The translations under genes were made by a program, and so were the position numbers. Positions 3,817 to 37,886 of a stretch of DNA of 53,286 nucleotides are shown here, piece by piece; positions within the stretch are counted from its first letter, which is position 1, and every line of letters begins with the position of its first letter. The notes below the pieces were generated by a model. The model had not been told where the DNA came from. It did no database searches and saw only the letters and a list, made by a program, of their open reading frames with translations. This DNA is from Patescibacteria group bacterium (GTDB taxonomy: Bacteria; Patescibacteriota; Minisyncoccia; Phycocordibacterales; UBA918), in contig JAIELQ010000015.1 of assembly GCA_019752815.1 (NCBI GenBank), positions 1 through 53,286 of the forward strand, in the 5' to 3' direction.

Positions 3817-4216
3817 GGGAGTGAGGGGATTCGGTGATGGATAATTTTAAGGCTCTTTATGGTCACGAATCACTAAGTAAACTAACGCGATGGGATTCGG
3901 TCACAAATAATTTCTTACAGAAATTTTCGCGACCCCGGCGCACTTGTGGCAAAGCCACAGCGTTTACGCCTTTCGAATCCCACCAGAAAGCGCACAGGCG
4001 CTTTCTTTCGCTCGCGCAAATGAAAAAGCCCCGAAGGGCTCTTTCATTTGCGCGAGCGATGGGATTCGAACTCTACGAGTTCAGTACCCCAATTGGCTGG
4101 ATTGGTGCGCTGCGCTTCCAATCCAGCTCAATTGGGCTTCGAATCCCAGCAAAATGTGTCCCACACATTTTGCCGTCGCTCGCACAAAAAAAACGGCTGA
4201 TGCCGTTCTTTTTTTG
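3817..4216 (-). repeat. Two tandem tRNA-Asp 3' trailer units plus decayed remnants
   Basis: Direct copies at 4049-4071, 3886-3898 and decayed 3817-3833; split inverted copies at 4138-4183 and 3972-4018. Confidence 0.9.
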
Positions 4217-22259: not shown

Positions 22260-22483
22260 GGAAGATGTGAGATTCGGTCACCAGTCACTAACTATAATTT
22301 ATCGCTAAGCTCAAATTCTAGTAAGTACTGTCGACCCGAGAAACAGTGTCTATACACTGTTTCTCCGTCTGTCGCTAAAGCGACATGACTCCGACCTTCG
22401 AATCTCAACGTAAAGCGCGCAGGCGCTTTACTCATCTTCCGCCCAATAAAATAACCGCCTTTAAGGGCGGTATTTTATACGGG
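22260..22483 (-). repeat. tRNA-Ser(ACU) 3' trailer element
   Basis: Direct copy 22260-22276 = 22485-22501; split inverted copy 22397-22444; hairpins at 22276-22336, 22338-22365, 22370-22385, 22445-22480. Confidence 0.9.
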
Positions 22484-22570
22484 CGGAAGATGTGAGATTC
22501 GAACTCACGGGCCACTTTCGCAGCCGACAGTTTAGTAAACTGTTGATTTAAACCACTCATCCAATCTTCC
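22484..22570 (-). tRNA. trnS: tRNA-Ser with ACU anticodon (class II, long variable arm)
   Basis: GGAAGAT/ATCTTCC acceptor, G73, ACAGT-TTACTAA-ACTGT anticodon arm, GGCTGC-GAAA-GTGGCC variable arm, GTGAG-TTCGAAT-CTCAC T arm. Confidence 0.9.
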
Positions 22571-22688
22571 ATACAGTTCGTTTTACTCACATGGAAGCCG
22601 CTTGCGCGGTTCATTGGAGTCGTGGTCGGTACTTTGTACCAGTACAGTCTGCAACTGTGCAGACTGTACCCATTTCATCCAATCTTCC
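22571..22688 (-). repeat. 5' leader element of tRNA-Ser(ACU) with direct and split inverted copies of the tRNA 5' end
   Basis: 22675-22688 = 22557-22570 (14 nt); GGAAG[15 nt hairpin]ATTGGA at 22593-22618; perfect 12-bp stem 22642-22669. Confidence 0.75.
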
Positions 22689-25443: not shown

Positions 25444-25619
25444 CGGGCGGAGAAGAGAGGATTCGAAACTTACAGTTTCGGTACACCCTTCATATCGTAC
25501 TCGCTATCGCTCCGTGCGATATATTCAGGGTTTTCGAATCCCTACACAAGAGACGTTTAGTCTCTTGCTCCTTTTCCGCCCAATAAAATAACCGCCCGTA
25601 AGGCGGTATTTTATACGGG
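25444..25619 (-). repeat. tRNA-Ser(GCU) 3' trailer element
   Basis: Decayed direct copy 25444-25467 (20/24 matches); split inverted copy 25533-25581; hairpin 25582-25616. Confidence 0.88.
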
Positions 25620-33078: not shown

Positions 33079-33711
33079 ATGACAACAATAATTGAAAATT
33101 TGAAATGGCGATACGCCACCAAAGGGTTTGATACGAGCAAAGAATTACCCGCTGCGGATTTAGACTATATCTTAGAAGCAGGACGAATGAGCGCGACCTC
33201 ATTTGGATTGCAACCGTTTAAAATTGTAATGGTAACAGATGAAGCAAAGAAGCAAACTCTCATGGGTCATGCCTGGAACCAGGCACATGTCGGTGAAAAT
33301 AGTGCCTTGATTATTCTCGCTGCGCGCACTGATGTGGATGAAGCGATGATCGCAGACTACACCGCTCGCATTGAAGCCACTCGCGGACTACCTGCTGGAG
33401 CGGTTGATGGATACAAGGACATGATGGTAGGTAGTCTCACGAGTCGACCGATTGAACACCGCACCATCTGGGCACAAAAGCAATGTTATATCGCCCTTGG
33501 TACCATGATGATGGCCGCGGCTGAACGTGGTGTTGACAGTTGCCCAATGGAAGGCTTTTCAAGTGAAGGTTTTGACGAAGTACTAGGACTCACAGCACAC
33601 AACCTGACAGCGAGTGTTATTCTACCTGTTGGCTATCACGCCGAAAGTGACGCGACGCAACATTACGCTAAAGTTCGTCGCACTGCTGAAGACATGATTG
33701 TGCGGATGTAA
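33079..33711 (+). CDS. Nitroreductase-family NAD(P)H oxidoreductase
   Basis: WRYATK.FD, SATSFGLQP, W..KQ.YIALG, DSCPMEGF, GY. Confidence 0.93.
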   Translation: MTTIIENLKWRYATKGFDTSKELPAADLDYILEAGRMSATSFGLQPFKIVMVTDEAKKQTLMGHAWNQAHVGENSALIILAARTDVDEAMIADYTARIEATRGLPAGAVDGYKDMMVGSLTSRPIEHRTIWAQKQCYIALGTMMMAAAERGVDSCPMEGFSSEGFDEVLGLTAHNLTASVILPVGYHAESDATQHYAKVRRTAEDMIVRM

Positions 33712-34142: not shown

Positions 34143-34262
34143 ATACTGTATACCCTGCCCTAAATTATTGGGTGTCTTGTAGATACATTACGTATTAAAA
34201 AACCATGTATCGTAATCCGTATTTTGCAAAATGAGTTAGGGCGGGGTATAGTTTTAGCCTAT

Positions 34263-34335
34263 CCATCCATAGCTCAGTTGGTAGAGCGTTCGTCTTATAC
34301 ACGGATGGTCCTTGGTTCGAATCCAAGTGGATGGA
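34263..34335 (+). tRNA. trnI: tRNA-Ile(UAU)
   Basis: CCATCCA/TGGATGG acceptor, TTCGT-CTTATAC-ACGGA anticodon arm (anticodon TAT), CTTGG-TTCGAAT-CCAAG T arm, A73. Confidence 0.92.
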
Positions 34336-34338
34336 CAT

Positions 34339-34998
34339 TTATACTGAATATTTAGTTCTTAAATATTTAATACCCTCTAGGACATATTCATACGTATCTC
34401 GTTCATGGTAAATAACCGAACATGTACCATGCGAAAACATTCCTTTGTAACTTTTGCTTTTTGAAGAAGTTGTTTTTTGATACGATTTATAATAATTTGT
34501 CATTGGAACACCGGTGATTTTTGACCAATATTTTTTGAGCTCTGCTTCATTTTGATCAGTGTATAAATGTAATTTAATCTTTAGACTATTAGGTGTAATT
34601 TTAAATTTGTATAACCAATCCACAAAGCATTTAATTATTGCAGGATCAGTATTTGTTAACGCAATAGAATATTCTGCACTTTTAGTACCTTCGCCCCAAT
34701 ACAAGTAAAATCCAGCTACAAATTCTGGGTCTTTTGAATTTTCTATATCGAAAGCTACTTTTTGGTAAACTGATTTTCTGCGAGCGTCTTTTTTATTTTG
34801 TTTCGTAATTCTATTTTTTTCTATTCGTATCTCACTGTTACTTTGTAATTCAGAAATTCTTTTATCTGAAAGCGGTAAATCTTTGAGCCATCCACTTAAG
34901 GTACTTTTACTAATACCTAATTCAGCTTTAATCATCGAATAACTATGACCTTTAGATCTCAAATTACGAGCTTTTTCTTTTTCAATTGAACGTGCCAT
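34339..34998 (-). CDS. HTH + LAGLIDADG-like domain protein, AT-rich, convergent on tRNA-Ile
   Basis: N-terminal HTH (G.SYS.I..ELGISKSTLS.W) and GFYLYWGEG.K..L.NTDP motif. Confidence 0.7.
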   Translation of the reverse strand: MARSIEKEKARNLRSKGHSYSMIKAELGISKSTLSGWLKDLPLSDKRISELQSNSEIRIEKNRITKQNKKDARRKSVYQKVAFDIENSKDPEFVAGFYLYWGEGTKSAEYSIALTNTDPAIIKCFVDWLYKFKITPNSLKIKLHLYTDQNEAELKKYWSKITGVPMTNYYKSYQKTTSSKSKSYKGMFSHGTCSVIYHERDTYEYVLEGIKYLRTKYSV

Positions 34999-35110
34999 AT
35001 TAATTATATACTTGGCGTTCCCTGGTTCAGTTAATTATACACCTAACTATGAGATTTGTTTGTTTCTATCCCCGTAATAGAACCCTAACCAATCCGGCCT
35101 GAGTGATACA

Positions 35111-36634
35111 ATGAATAAAATGTTTAGTTTTGTTCGTCAACATCATGTACTCACGGGAGGCATTGTTATAGCTATGTTAGCTGGAAGTTATTTTGTATAC
35201 GAGAGAATTAATCGCGACCCACTTGAAGGGCTAGTCACTACGACTATAGAACGTGGGACCGTTGAGAAATTGGTTTCGGTCTCAGGTATAACAAAAGCTC
35301 GAAATACGGCCGAGCTGGGATTTCCATCCCCAGGTACGGTCTCAAAAGTGTACGTACGCGAAGGCGACACTGTTGTGGGAGGAACAATACTAGCAACCTT
35401 GGGAGCAGATGAACTTGTAGCGGCGCGGGCGAGCGCACTTGCGGACCTTGCAGTGGCACAAGCAGATAGAGCTGAATTAGTCACCGGTGACACAATTACA
35501 GAACGAGATATCACCGAGACCAAAGTAGCCATCGCAGAAGCAGAACTAAAACGTATTGAAGAGACGCAGGCAGTTCTGATTGCTAATGCCAAACGGGCCC
35601 TACGTTCCGGAACACCAATTGCTCGCAGTGAGGATGCAGACGAGTCGGCTCCTGCCCCGACTATTTCTGGAACCTATCGCTGCGAGAAAGAAGGTTCGTA
35701 CATCCTCACGGTGTACCGTTCTGGAGCAGATTCAGGTTACTCAATGCGCATTACCGGACTGGAAACTGGCAGTGCAAGCGTATCGACTGACCAACCAACT
35801 CCCTTTGGAACTTGTGGTTTATTTGCACTATTCACTGATGGTGCACAGTATAGTAACTCGGTTTGGACCGTAACAATTCCCAATACCACCGGGGAAAGCT
35901 ACACCATTAACAAAAATGCCTTGGCGGCAGCTGAAAATACAGCCCGCACCAGTATTGCCGCAGCCAAACAAGCACTTACTCTAGCGCAACAAGAACAAGC
36001 TTCGATCAATGCTGCACCTCGGAGCGAAGCCCTAGCGAGAGCTAACGCCCGCATCAATAAAGCCAGCGCCACCATCGCCCAAATTGATGCTCAAATTGGC
36101 GACCGAGCAATTATCGCACCATTTAGCGGCACTGTGACTAAAGTTGACATTGTCGCAGGAGAAACTACCGGCACCCTTCCCCTCTTTACATTACTCTCTA
36201 CCGACGATATCGAATTGAAGGCCCGTATTCCTGAAATTGACATTACAACAATCACCACAGGGCAATCTGCCCGCATCATATTTGACGCTGAGCCATCCAC
36301 ACCACTTTCGGGCGTTGTAACCTATATTTCGCCACTGCCAACTGAAATTGATGGAGTGAGCTATTTTGAAATTACCATCATCTTAAACACCAGACCAGAC
36401 TGGCTCCGTTCTGGATTAAATGCTGATATTGATATCATTACTGAGTTTACCGAAAATTTGTTACGTATACCAAAACGGTATCTTGTCGAAAATAGCGAGG
36501 GAGCGTTTATTCGAGTGTTGCAAGACTCACAAATTGCCACATCTTCTGTACTCAAAGAATACGAAGGGAACGACGGTTGGGTAGGTATTACCGGTGTTGG
36601 CGTTACCGAAGGAATGGTAATTGTAAATCCGTAG
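35111..36634 (+). CDS. Efflux periplasmic adaptor subunit (HlyD/MacA-like)
   Basis: N-terminal TM, G.V..V.V.EGD.V lipoyl half, coiled coil, APFSG.V. Confidence 0.88.
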   Translation: MNKMFSFVRQHHVLTGGIVIAMLAGSYFVYERINRDPLEGLVTTTIERGTVEKLVSVSGITKARNTAELGFPSPGTVSKVYVREGDTVVGGTILATLGADELVAARASALADLAVAQADRAELVTGDTITERDITETKVAIAEAELKRIEETQAVLIANAKRALRSGTPIARSEDADESAPAPTISGTYRCEKEGSYILTVYRSGADSGYSMRITGLETGSASVSTDQPTPFGTCGLFALFTDGAQYSNSVWTVTIPNTTGESYTINKNALAAAENTARTSIAAAKQALTLAQQEQASINAAPRSEALARANARINKASATIAQIDAQIGDRAIIAPFSGTVTKVDIVAGETTGTLPLFTLLSTDDIELKARIPEIDITTITTGQSARIIFDAEPSTPLSGVVTYISPLPTEIDGVSYFEITIILNTRPDWLRSGLNADIDIITEFTENLLRIPKRYLVENSEGAFIRVLQDSQIATSSVLKEYEGNDGWVGITGVGVTEGMVIVNP

Positions 36635-36638
36635 AACT

Positions 36639-37886
36639 ATGAACATATTTCGGATTGGATTATTGCTTGGAATTCGACAAATACAACGAGCCAGTATTTG
36701 GACAAACATCTTAATTGTGTTTGTTATGGCATTAACATTCCTTAATCTTATTGCCGTATCCGGAATTCTCGTGGGACTGATTGTAGGATCTGAGCGCGCT
36801 CTCCAAGAAAAATCACTTGGCGATATCATTGTAACTACCAAAGATAACGAGACCACTATCATTGACACTCCCGCCTTTACACGAGTGCTCGACAGCATCC
36901 CCGAAATACAAGACTATACCGTTCGCTTTAAAGAAGGGGCTCAAGTTGAAGCAAACTACAAAACACGACGTGATTTAAGTCAGGATAAAAATGTTATTTC
37001 AGGGAGCATTGTAGGTATTGACCCCATCAAAGAAGATGCAGTAACTGGGCTATCAACCACGGTTGTTGAGGGTGAGTATCTCGACACTAGTGAAGATGGC
37101 TATCTGCTACTAGGAGCACTTACCCTAGATAGATACACCGCGGGATTTGCTGATATCACCGGTTCACTTGAAAATATCTATCCAGGCGACACAGTTCGAG
37201 TAACGATTGGACAAAATACGAAAGAGTTTTTTGTTAAAGGAATCATTAATGCTAAGGCAGGTGAAGTGTCTCGCTCGATATATATACCTGAGCGTGAATT
37301 GCGACGTCTCGGTAATCGCGTGACGCAAGATGCTGAAGAAATAGCCATTCGCCTGCAAGCAAATACTGACGCAACGATGGTAAAAAATGCCCTGATTAAT
37401 TCAGGACTGGCTGAACAAGCTAAAATCAGAACTTTTAACGAGGCTTTACCTAAATTCTTAGTAGATATCAAAAACACCTTTAATGTACTGGGCACCTTTA
37501 TCGGTTCTATTGGAATTATTGTTGCTTCTATCACCATATTCATTATTATCTTCATTAACGCGCTAGCTCGCCGGCGGTTCATTGGTATTTTAAAAGGTAT
37601 CGGAATTGACCGGACCGCTATTGAAATTGCGTATGTAATTCAAGCTGGTGTCTATGCACTTGCTGGCTCACTAATTGGAGTAGTTATCACCTACGCTATT
37701 CTCATTCCCTACTTTGATGCTAACCCGATTAATTTTCCGTTTAGTGATGGTATTTTAGTCGCTGAACCAATTGGCACTCTTGTTCGCTTCATCACACTAT
37801 TTATCATTACCCTGCTTGCTGGATACATCCCCGCCTGGATGATTGCGCGCGGGAATACGCTTAATGCTATTTTAGGAAGAAAATAA
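36639..37886 (+). CDS. ABC transporter permease (MacB/FtsX-like)
   Basis: TM - large extracellular domain - 3 TM; RR.IGILK.IG. Confidence 0.88.
   Translation: MNIFRIGLLLGIRQIQRASIWTNILIVFVMALTFLNLIAVSGILVGLIVGSERALQEKSLGDIIVTTKDNETTIIDTPAFTRVLDSIPEIQDYTVRFKEGAQVEANYKTRRDLSQDKNVISGSIVGIDPIKEDAVTGLSTTVVEGEYLDTSEDGYLLLGALTLDRYTAGFADITGSLENIYPGDTVRVTIGQNTKEFFVKGIINAKAGEVSRSIYIPERELRRLGNRVTQDAEEIAIRLQANTDATMVKNALINSGLAEQAKIRTFNEALPKFLVDIKNTFNVLGTFIGSIGIIVASITIFIIIFINALARRRFIGILKGIGIDRTAIEIAYVIQAGVYALAGSLIGVVITYAILIPYFDANPINFPFSDGILVAEPIGTLVRFITLFIITLLAGYIPAWMIARGNTLNAILGRK

What the first reader, a model, noticed from the sequence alone, without database searches (positions are those of the whole stretch)
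34336..34998. HTH + LAGLIDADG-like ORF docked tail-to-tail on tRNA-Ile with no terminator between
Seen: an AT-rich 219-aa ORF whose stop codon lies 3 nt after the tRNA discriminator. It has an N-terminal HTH and a G.YLYWGEG helix reminiscent of LAGLIDADG. This tRNA lacks the trailer found at five other tRNAs, and the ORF occupies that position. Inference: a tRNA-end-associated selfish gene or regulator, and a candidate trans-acting factor for the trailer elements.
Basis: inference. Interest (0 to 1): 0.55.

Follow-up and report, generated by a model that had tools for sequence, protein, structure and literature searches.

The report
Selfish nuclease gene docked on tRNA-Ile
The 219-aa gene is most likely a free-standing homing-endonuclease gene, with a DNA-binding head and a divergent LAGLIDADG nuclease core, and it belongs to a very large unannotated family in ultra-small (Patescibacteria) bacteria in which each branch sits directly against one particular tRNA gene, here tRNA-Ile(UAU).

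Summary
An intact 219-aa ORF (34339-34998, minus strand, about 30% GC against 45-50% around it) ends 3 nt from the discriminator of tRNA-Ile(UAU), tail to tail, with no terminator between them. It has an N-terminal resolvase/Tc3-type HTH, a long linker helix and one LAGLIDADG-fold domain that keeps the catalytic-type Glu.

In 79 of 80 species genomes that encode an orthologue, the gene abuts tRNA-Ile(UAU). The usual arrangement is co-oriented, with the stop codon supplied by tRNA bases U8-A9-G10. The tail-to-tail form seen here is the minority (10 of 79).

Paralogous clades each abut another tRNA (Gly, Arg, Gln, Met, Val, or intron-split tRNAs). The window's genome has three copies, all at tRNAs.

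The gene behaves as a selfish insert:
- It is patchy among congeners.
- At least nine congeners have an empty site with the same flanking genes.
- A 95%-identical genome carries a 532-bp internal deletion of it.
- Its identity is discordant with that of its flanks.
- It is AT-rich in 78 of 80 loci.

It is still under purifying selection (dN/dS about 0.1). I found no support for a role in the tRNA "trailer" elements.

Earlier agents of this scan noted the same family on other genomes. I found no published description. Cleavage and the target site are untested.

The parts
34224..34252 (+). Promoter-like site of the tRNA (TTGCAA-17-TATAGT), ending 10 nt before the tRNA
   Evidence: Consensus scan. 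A similar 'ggTATAGT' lies at the same distance in other tail-to-tail and empty-site loci. This is a pattern match only.
34263..34335 (+). tRNA-Ile(UAU), 73 nt, C1-G72 acceptor pair, no encoded CCA. A resident gene and probably the only AUA decoder.
   Evidence: ARAGORN and a hand fold. It lies at the same syntenic place in congeners with and without the ORF. No TilS was found in the genome.
34336..34338 (.). 3-nt spacer between the tRNA discriminator and the ORF's stop codon
   Evidence: Sequence. No terminator-like site.
34339..34998 (-). 219-aa ORF: free-standing HTH + single-LAGLIDADG homing-endonuclease-like gene, tRNA-Ile(UAU) clade
   Evidence: dN/dS is about 0.1 against the closest orthologue.
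34873..34998 (-). N-terminal three-helix HTH (residues 1-42), resolvase/Tc3/IstA type
   Evidence: Weak Pfam HTH hits. Structural matches to 2r0q, 2x48, 1u78 and 8b4h at Z 4.9-5.5.
34738..34833 (-). Long linker helix (residues 56-87) between the HTH and the nuclease domain
   Evidence: AlphaFold2 model, helix 56-87.
34342..34737 (-). LAGLIDADG-fold domain (residues 88-219), alpha-beta-beta-alpha-beta-beta-alpha
   Evidence: Domain model with pLDDT 92.7. The top 8 of 48,161 PDB chains are all LAGLIDADG proteins, Z 7.3-5.5. The family profile hits I-DmoI at E 8e-4.
34681..34713 (-). GFYLYWGEGTK motif (residues 96-106). E103 and K106 align with E117 and K120 of I-DmoI.
   Evidence: Invariant in 46 of 46 orthologues. 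E and K are at least 90% conserved across all tRNA clades. HMM alignment to I-DmoI.
34999..35110 (.). 112-nt spacer between the ORF start and the divergent HlyD-family gene. It presumably holds both promoters. No tRNA-derived fossil here.
33079..33711 (+). Context: nitroreductase gene, the conserved left neighbour of the tRNA
   Evidence: Pfam PF00881; synteny.
35111..37886 (+). Context: HlyD-family adaptor and FtsX-type permease genes, the conserved right neighbours. In most congeners they lie 90-400 nt from the tRNA with no ORF between.
   Evidence: Pfam; synteny and empty sites.

Best explanation
The ORF is a free-standing homing-endonuclease gene (HEG) of a large Patescibacteria family whose clades are each anchored to one tRNA gene. 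This one belongs to the tRNA-Ile(UAU) clade.

Shown:
- The protein combines a small HTH, a linker helix and one LAGLIDADG-fold domain that keeps the acidic residue (E103) and lysine (K106) found in the active site of I-DmoI.
- The gene is an insertion between a resident, probably essential tRNA-Ile(UAU) and an HlyD/FtsX operon.
- It is present, absent, replaced by a distant clade member, or internally deleted in close relatives.
- It is AT-rich but under purifying selection.

Inferred:
- The protein dimerises through the LAGLIDADG helix, as single-motif enzymes do.
- It recognises DNA of the tRNA-Ile(UAU) gene in genomes that lack the HEG and makes a double-strand break. Recombinational repair from an HEG-bearing copy then carries the HEG, and probably the linked tRNA allele, into the cut chromosome.
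- Sitting flush against the mature tRNA end keeps the insert harmless, because tRNA end-processing removes whatever flanks the tRNA, and it keeps the HEG tightly linked to its target.
- In the tail-to-tail form of this window the gene needs its own promoter in the 112-nt spacer, and its transcript runs antisense into the tRNA.
For: Fold and motif:
- The profile of 46 orthologues hits I-DmoI motif 2 at E 0.003, and the profile of 49 members from all clades hits it at E 8e-4, with E-G-x-K aligned.
- Domain model with pLDDT 92.7. The eight best of 48,161 PDB chains are all LAGLIDADG proteins: TliVMA intein endonuclease Z 7.3, I-DmoI 6.2, E-DreI 5.7, PI-PkoII 5.7, I-Tsp061I 5.6, WhiA 5.5 (two entries), I-Vdi141I 5.5.

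tRNA anchoring:
- 79 of 80 species genomes have tRNA-Ile(UAU) at the gene. 67 are co-oriented, 27 of them with an exact 10-nt overlap so that the stop is U8-A9-G10. 10 are tail to tail, 8 of them within -1 to 3 nt.
- In the tree every tRNA identity forms its own clade.
- All three copies in this genome sit at tRNAs.
- Distant relatives lie in phage tRNA clusters.

Mobility:
- There are 0-6 copies per genome within one GTDB family, and the Ile type occurs in only 8 of 61 genomes.
- The order nitroreductase, tRNA-Ile, HlyD, FtsX is conserved in the genus, and nine genomes show no trace of the ORF there; a tenth (L117) keeps only a deletion remnant.
- Locus L117 is 94-95% identical in DNA to locus L004 but lacks 532 bp from inside the gene.
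- L002 has the gene at 76% identity but HlyD at 42% and FtsX at 59%. G078 has HlyD at 73% and FtsX at 67% but a gene of only 43% identity, from another subclade, at the same site.
- The gene is more AT-rich than its flanks in 78 of 80 loci.
- dN/dS is 0.09-0.11.

Precedent: phage T4 SegB is a free-standing endonuclease in a tRNA cluster that recognises a tRNA T-arm motif and drives inheritance of its gene and the neighbouring tRNAs (PMC2330249).
Against: - No nuclease activity, dimer or target site has been shown.
- No Pfam LAGLIDADG model matches, even at E up to 10.
- Foldseek ranks only poor OmpA-like matches (TM 0.41 or less), and the structural Z scores (7.3 or less) are middling.
- No HEG-less variant of this exact strain was seen in four metagenome runs. 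These were contigs only, which hide rare variants.
- Strong purifying selection and partial matching to host GC would also fit a gene that has acquired a host function.
- How the HEG-linked tRNA copy would escape cutting is unknown.
- Kin are not independent, so the association of tRNA allele with HEG presence may be phylogenetic.
Confidence: 0.75

Rival explanations
1. A domesticated DNA-binding protein, analogous to WhiA. It would use the HTH and an inactive or rarely active LAGLIDADG scaffold to bind the tRNA gene and regulate its transcription or protect it, and it would be kept because it benefits the host.
For: WhiA (LAGLIDADG scaffold plus HTH) is among the structural matches at Z 5.2-5.5. 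dN/dS is about 0.1. The gene's GC tracks host GC across loci, which implies long residence. Each clade is strictly partnered with one tRNA.
Against: The gene is absent from most congeners that keep the same tRNA and neighbours. It is internally deleted in a 95%-identical genome. It is replaced by a 43%-identical clade member in the closest relative. Copy number ranges from 0 to 6 within one genus. The catalytic-type E and K are retained, unlike in WhiA.
Confidence: 0.12
2. The trans-acting enzyme for the gene-less hairpin 'trailer' elements that insert into tRNA 3' ends.
For: Both those elements and this family act at the ends of tRNA genes. Half-tRNA copies with breakpoints in the anticodon loop flank tRNA-Ile(UAU) in some related loci.
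Against: Trailer-type copies occur at about 10 of 36 tRNAs examined in two congeners without any detectable family member, against about 12 of 38 here. Family clades are specific to single tRNAs, while trailers follow many tRNAs. This genome has only three family genes (Ile, Val, Gly), yet trailers sit at Ser, Phe, Gln, Asp, Leu, Pro and Lys tRNAs.
Confidence: 0.05
3. A now-inactive relic: a formerly mobile endonuclease gene that is stranded and will decay, with no present activity.
For: Deletion derivatives exist in relatives. No HEG-less allele was seen in the same samples.
Against: The ORF is intact at full family length. All 32 invariant residues of the orthologue alignment are present by construction of that alignment. 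dN/dS of about 0.1 against an 83%-identical orthologue indicates continuing selection on the protein.
Confidence: 0.08

Closest known systems
Single-motif (homodimeric) and I-DmoI-type LAGLIDADG homing endonucleases (I-CreI, I-CeuI, I-MsoI, I-DmoI, I-Tsp061I; I-ShaI of CPR rRNA introns, PMC11270868)
   Same: The same alpha-beta-beta-alpha-beta-beta-alpha core. A helix ending in an acidic residue followed by Gly, and the E-G-x-K match to I-DmoI motif 2. AT-rich, patchy and invasive behaviour. Targeting of a highly conserved RNA gene.
   Different: Too divergent for any Pfam LAGLIDADG model. It carries an extra N-terminal HTH and a linker helix. It is not inside an intron or intein but free-standing, flush against a tRNA gene end. 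Cleavage has not been demonstrated.
Phage T4 SegB, and the free-standing endonucleases of T-even and T5 tRNA regions (PMC2330249)
   Same: A free-standing endonuclease gene among tRNA genes. SegB recognises a tRNA gene motif (the T arm) and spreads itself together with neighbouring tRNA genes. That is the mechanism proposed here, and distant relatives of this family sit in phage tRNA clusters.
   Different: SegB is a GIY-YIG enzyme in a phage. This is a LAGLIDADG-fold protein in a cellular chromosome, in one-to-one partnership with a single tRNA identity, and often shares its stop codon with the tRNA.
WhiA/DUF199 (a domesticated LAGLIDADG scaffold plus HTH; 3hyi, 8dy9)
   Same: A LAGLIDADG fold combined with an HTH DNA-binding domain. 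Structural matches at Z 5.2-5.5.
   Different: WhiA has two degenerate LAGLIDADG domains without catalytic acids, has its HTH at the C-terminus, and is conserved and vertically inherited. Here there is one domain with the acid kept, the HTH is at the N-terminus, and the gene is patchy and dispensable.
Collaborative homing
   Same: One clade of the family (7 loci here) lies beside intron-split tRNA genes.
   Different: tRNA-Ile(UAU) in this window has no intron, so this member cannot work through an intron partner.

Membership tests
LAGLIDADG homing endonucleases | Alpha-beta-beta-alpha-beta-beta-alpha core fold led by the LAGLIDADG helix | tested here: met
   Domain model with pLDDT 92.7 and matching secondary-structure order. 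VIA-align ranks 1-8 of 48,161 chains are all LAGLIDADG proteins, Z 7.3-5.5, with 79-87 aligned residues spanning the whole domain. The Z values are middling, and Foldseek missed the fold.
LAGLIDADG homing endonucleases | Conserved acidic residue at the C-terminal end of the motif helix (the metal-binding catalytic Asp/Glu) | tested here: met
   E103 is invariant in 46 orthologues and at least 90% conserved across all tRNA clades. It aligns with E117 of I-DmoI.
LAGLIDADG homing endonucleases | Significant match to a curated family model (Pfam PF00961, PF03161 or PF14528) | tested here: not met
   hmmscan at E up to 10 returns only weak HTH families. The only sequence link is the family profile against I-DmoI chains, E 8e-4 to 3e-3.
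LAGLIDADG homing endonucleases | Site-specific double-strand cleavage leaving 4-nt 3' overhangs, and homodimer formation for single-motif enzymes | not testable with these tools
   Needs purified protein. No multimer prediction was available.
LAGLIDADG homing endonucleases | Behaviour as an invasive, dispensable insert (presence/absence at an otherwise conserved site; horizontal spread) | tested here: met
   Empty syntenic sites in nine congeners. A 532-bp internal deletion in a 95%-identical genome. Identities discordant with the flanks. AT-rich in 78 of 80 loci.
SegB-type free-standing endonucleases of tRNA clusters | GIY-YIG catalytic domain | tested here: not met
   No GIY-YIG match. The fold is LAGLIDADG. 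This is an analogue in behaviour, not a member.
SegB-type free-standing endonucleases of tRNA clusters | The recognition site lies inside a tRNA gene | not testable with these tools
   The only evidence is indirect: clade-to-tRNA specificity and recurrent breakpoints in the anticodon loop of tRNA-Ile(UAU) in related loci.
WhiA/DUF199 | Two degenerate LAGLIDADG domains lacking the catalytic acids, a C-terminal HTH, and near-universal vertical conservation in its lineage | tested here: not met
   One domain, N-terminal HTH, acid retained. Patchy distribution.

The most novel reading that the evidence does not exclude
These genes would be a distinct class of selfish element that uses tRNA end-processing (RNase P or RNase Z) the way intron- and intein-borne endonucleases use splicing. 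They sit in the leader or trailer of a tRNA, are removed from the mature product at no cost to the host, and cut the palindromic anticodon arm of the cognate tRNA gene in naive genomes. They would then co-convert the tRNA allele as they home, and so drive turnover of tRNA genes in Patescibacteria, including the whole-tRNA replacements seen as half-tRNA fossils. Repeated flips between the 5' and 3' docking positions would be made possible by the self-complementary acceptor stem.
Probability: 0.3. Interest if true: 0.8.

Novelty: new variant of a known kind. Interest (0 to 1): 0.6.

Why it matters
Free-standing homing endonucleases are known mainly from phages and organelles. This family has at least 3,700 clusters at 50% identity in cellular chromosomes, with one clade per tRNA identity.

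If the proposed mechanism holds, it would add a third "harmless docking" strategy beside introns and inteins. It would supply many natural LAGLIDADG-type scaffolds with an added HTH and distinct specificities. It would also explain part of the instability around tRNA genes in ultra-small bacteria.

For annotation, it gives a name and a context rule to thousands of "hypothetical" or "HTH domain" proteins.

For this genome, it marks tRNA-Ile(UAU), apparently the only AUA decoder, as the anchor of a selfish insert.

Tried and rejected
- Pfam and NCBIfam scans of the protein gave only sub-threshold HTH or transposase-HTH hits and no LAGLIDADG model.
- phmmer against PDB with the single sequence gave nothing useful; the RecA repeats are an artefact.
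- Foldseek against PDB, with the whole model and with the domain model, gave OmpA/YfiB-like rows at TM 0.41 or less and rmsd 7-8 A. I treat these as a generic alpha/beta resemblance.
- I looked for tRNA-derived fossils inside the window, upstream of the tRNA, inside the ORF and in the 34999-35110 spacer. Nothing scored above shuffled controls.
- I looked for a strain variant lacking the ORF in four public runs. There was no joint across it. The runs are contigs only, so this says little. The extra tRNA-matching contigs belong to a co-occurring congener.
- My first tally named tRNA-Val or tRNA-Pro as the neighbour in four loci. Re-reading showed that tRNA-Ile(UAU) is there too and is closer.
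- I first read the half-tRNA fossils as footprints of endonuclease cuts.
- I rejected an IS or transposase reading: there is no DDE or other transposase domain, no terminal repeats, and the C-terminal domain is LAGLIDADG-like.
- Three full-text literature searches and one paper check found no description of tRNA-anchored HTH-LAGLIDADG genes.

Full report
**Observation.** The window holds an intact ATG-started ORF at 34339-34998 on the minus strand (219 aa). It also holds tRNA-Ile(UAU) on the plus strand. Folding the tRNA by hand from the sequence puts the discriminator at 34335. The stop codon's complement begins at 34339, so three bases separate the two genes, tail to tail. No terminator-like hairpin is found. 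The ORF is 30% GC in a window of 45% GC, and its third codon positions are 19.5% GC against 35-43% in the neighbouring genes. So the AT-richness is not only a matter of amino-acid composition. A promoter-like TTGCAA-17-TATAGT ends 10 nt before the tRNA.

**The protein.** Pfam and NCBIfam give only sub-threshold HTH hits. The family, however, is very large. There are 586 close hits of nearly constant length, 218-226 aa. There are 3,735 clusters at 50% identity with E of 1e-3 or better in a library of 1.8 billion representatives. An alignment of 46 orthologues has 32 invariant positions, including the whole of L-Y-W-x-E-G-T-K in the GFYLYWGEGTK motif.

AlphaFold2 on that alignment (pLDDT 88.6) gives four parts:
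- a three-helix HTH (residues 1-42);
- two short helices;
- a long helix (56-87);
- an alpha-beta-beta-alpha-beta-beta-alpha domain (88-219).

The HTH matches resolvase, Tc3 and IstA DNA-binding domains (Z about 5-5.5). A model of the C-terminal domain alone, built on 49 members from all clades, has pLDDT 92.7. When it is aligned against 48,161 PDB representatives, its eight best matches are all LAGLIDADG proteins (Z 7.3 to 5.5, covering the whole domain). I-CeuI, I-MsoI, PI-PfuI, PI-SceI and I-CreI follow further down the list. Profile searches of PDB sequences return I-DmoI as the only coherent hit (E 3e-3 and 8e-4). They align the family's L-Y-w-g-E-G-t-K with I-DmoI's L-Y-V-A-E-G-D-K. From my own knowledge of I-DmoI, E117 is one of its two catalytic acids and K120 an active-site lysine. 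The family keeps both equivalents (E103, K106). Foldseek did not find the fold, and the Z scores are middling. I therefore call this a divergent LAGLIDADG-fold domain with a plausibly intact active site, not a proven nuclease.

**Link to tRNA genes.** A scan of one genome per prokaryote species returned 80 loci encoding an orthologue, all in Patescibacteria-type MAGs. In 79 of them tRNA-Ile(UAU) lies at the gene. The eightieth contig ends just past the match.
- 67 loci are co-oriented, with the tRNA directly downstream. In 27 the overlap is exactly 10 nt, so the ORF's stop codon is the TAG formed by tRNA positions 8-10.
- 10 loci are tail to tail as in this window, 8 of them within -1 to 3 nt.
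- 2 loci are divergent.

The window's own 1.04-Mb genome holds three family members and 38 detected tRNAs. The other two end 9 nt before tRNA-Val(GAC) and 13 nt before tRNA-Gly(GCC).

I cut out about 60 regions around family matches in 61 genomes of the same GTDB family. About 56 of 72 genes end within 70 nt, and mostly within 20 nt, of a co-oriented tRNA: Gly(GCC), Gly(UCC), Arg(UCG), Gln(UUG), Met(CAU) or Val(GAC). Others have tRNA-Val(UAC) or tRNA-Thr(CGU) just upstream. Seven of the eight that seemed to have no tRNA lie beside a group I intron, that is, an intron-split tRNA that ARAGORN misses. In a FastTree of 151 members every tRNA identity is one clade or, for Gly(GCC), two clades. The Ile(UAU) clade has 88 rows with support 98. 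Four distant relatives on phage-classified contigs also sit in tRNA clusters, one of them 6 nt before tRNA-Val(UAC).

**The gene is a dispensable, moving insert.**
- Within the GTDB family, genomes carry 0 to 6 copies. Only 8 of 61 have the Ile type.
- Within the genus, the order nitroreductase, tRNA-Ile(UAU), HlyD-family gene, FtsX permease is conserved. The ORF lies between tRNA and HlyD only in this genome and in G078. Nine other genomes have the tRNA 90-400 nt from HlyD with nothing between, and a tenth (L117, below) keeps only a deletion remnant. So the tRNA is resident and the ORF is the insertion.
- G078 is the closest relative by flanks (HlyD 73%, FtsX 67%). Its gene at the same site is only 43% identical and belongs to another Ile subclade.
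- Locus L002 shows the reverse: the gene is 76% identical but HlyD is 42% and FtsX 59%.
- Locus L117 is 94-95% identical in DNA to locus L004 on both sides but lacks 532 bp from the inside of the gene. It keeps only the first 27 and last 95 nt or so.
- The gene is more AT-rich than its flanks in 78 of 80 loci, by 8 points on average.
- It is not decaying where it is intact: dN/dS is about 0.1 against the 83%-identical orthologue.

This is the pattern expected of an active homing endonuclease gene that persists by recurrent spread. A domesticated function is not excluded.

**The tail-to-tail arrangement.** In the tree the tail-to-tail form is the rule in the window's own taxonomic family and arose at least three times. 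In both arrangements the 3' end of the ORF faces an acceptor-stem end. Because the two acceptor strands are complementary, the first seven bases after the ORF read the same in either case (CCATCCA here). An in-place inversion of the tRNA between its own acceptor arms would convert one form into the other. That is my inference and is untested. Two congeners do show the tRNA unit flipped relative to HlyD (L125, L127). One consequence for this locus is that the ORF cannot use the tRNA promoter. It must be transcribed from the 112-nt spacer shared with the HlyD gene, where no consensus promoter was found, and its transcript runs antisense through the tRNA.

**Likely target.** This rests on inference only. 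Clade-to-tRNA specificity argues that the tRNA gene itself is recognised, as T4 SegB recognises a T-arm motif (PMC2330249).

In seven related loci the intact tRNA-Ile(UAU) is bracketed by fossil half-tRNAs. A copy of positions 1 to about 36 lies 31-78 nt upstream, a copy of positions about 34 to the end lies 12-41 nt downstream, or both are present. The breakpoints overlap by 2-4 nt in the anticodon. In L007 the fossil halves carry the CCATCCA acceptor of this window's tRNA, and the HEG abuts the fossil 3' half. So an arrangement like this window's was later interrupted there by a new tRNA copy. The anticodon arm is a natural pseudo-palindrome with TATA at its centre, which would suit a homodimeric LAGLIDADG enzyme.

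Among congeners the window's subclade is linked to one anticodon-stem allele (CGT...ACG) in 7 of 8 loci, while 9 of 11 HEG-less loci carry another allele.

There are three reasons for caution:
- These genomes are kin, so the allele association may be phylogenetic.
- The window itself has no fossils.
- Tandem 'spacer plus 3' half' units (L046), and T-loop-breakpoint copies behind many tRNAs even in genomes with no family member, point to a separate class of gene-less hairpin elements already noted in this scan.

I therefore give the anticodon-arm target about 0.3.

**The trailer idea.** Many tRNAs of this genome are followed by three things: a terminator-like hairpin, an inverted copy of their own 3' end, and a direct copy of their last 20 nt or so about 110-210 nt downstream. 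Two congeners in which the family profile finds nothing (G035, G057) show such direct copies at about 10 of 36 tRNAs examined, against about 12 of 38 here. tRNA-Gly(GCC) here has both a family gene upstream and a trailer downstream. So the family is not needed for trailers to be present, and its clade specificity does not fit a general factor.

**Comparison and novelty.** By fold and motif the protein is a divergent relative of LAGLIDADG homing endonucleases, closest in sequence to I-DmoI motif 2. It fails the curated-model test and carries an extra HTH. By behaviour it works like SegB-type free-standing endonucleases of tRNA clusters, but it has a different catalytic fold, sits in cellular chromosomes, and is in one-to-one partnership with a tRNA. 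It is not WhiA.

Three full-text searches and a check of the one paper on CPR LAGLIDADG enzymes (which does not mention tRNA) found no description of the family. Earlier agents of this scan reported the same family at other tRNAs in at least 83 other genomes. My results agree with theirs and add:
- the Ile(UAU) clade;
- the minority tail-to-tail docking;
- the syntenic empty sites;
- the within-species deletion;
- the discordant identities.

**Verdict.** The selfish-gene reading is supported, and the trailer-factor reading is not. This is a new variant of a known kind.

Noticed in passing
window 3817-4216, 22300-22480, 25450-25617; own genome generally: Many tRNAs are followed by a terminator-like hairpin, an inverted copy of their own acceptor/T-arm end, a GC hairpin, and a direct copy of their last 20 nt or so 110-210 nt downstream (12 of 38 tRNAs by a score cut-off). 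Similar copies occur in congeners that lack the HTH-LAGLIDADG family.
   Followed up: partly
L007:3560-3950, L046:3640-3960, L119:1080-1340, L125:3110-3350, also L038, L063, L120: The intact tRNA-Ile(UAU) is bracketed by fossil 5' and/or 3' half-tRNAs whose breakpoints overlap in the anticodon (positions 34-37). In L046 the 'spacer plus 3' half' unit is repeated in tandem. In L007 the fossil halves have the acceptor stem of this window's tRNA. The mechanism is unexplained.
   Followed up: partly
L121:520-660 and L124 (reverse strand, downstream of the tRNA): The fossil 3' half of an older tRNA-Ile is itself interrupted in its T arm by an insert of about 75 nt that is shared by two genomes.
   Followed up: no
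window 34263-34335 and whole genome: No TilS (TIGR02432) was found in a genome that is 99.97% complete by markers. tRNA-Ile(UAU) is therefore probably the only AUA decoder. It has an unusual C1-G72 (often C1C2) acceptor start, shared across most Paceibacteria-type loci.
   Followed up: partly
window 22481-22571: ARAGORN calls a tRNA-Ser with anticodon ACU, an anticodon that is normally avoided. A direct copy of its first 15 nt lies about 103 nt upstream.
   Followed up: no
L156, L162, L165, L168; L157, L159, L160, L167, L173: Family genes occur as tandem pairs in front of one tRNA-Gly(GCC), with the two members from different Gly clades. They also occur as neighbouring Arg(UCG)-type and Gly(GCC)-type units 0.5-1.5 kb apart. 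These look like small nests of such genes in tRNA clusters.
   Followed up: no
L149, L150, L152, L155, L161, L164, L175: One clade of the family lies divergently upstream of a group I intron (Rfam RF00028, 58-76 bits), that is, of an intron-split tRNA that ARAGORN misses. This clade is sister to the Met(CAU) clade.
   Followed up: partly
L125:3187-3261, L127:3353-3427: In two congeners the tRNA-Ile(UAU) unit is inverted relative to the HlyD/FtsX genes, with no family gene present.
   Followed up: no
L197:3001-3686, L198, L199, L200 (IMG/VR contigs of 60-340 kb): Relatives at about 30% identity sit inside tRNA clusters of large phage-classified contigs. One ends 6 nt before tRNA-Val(UAC).
   Followed up: partly
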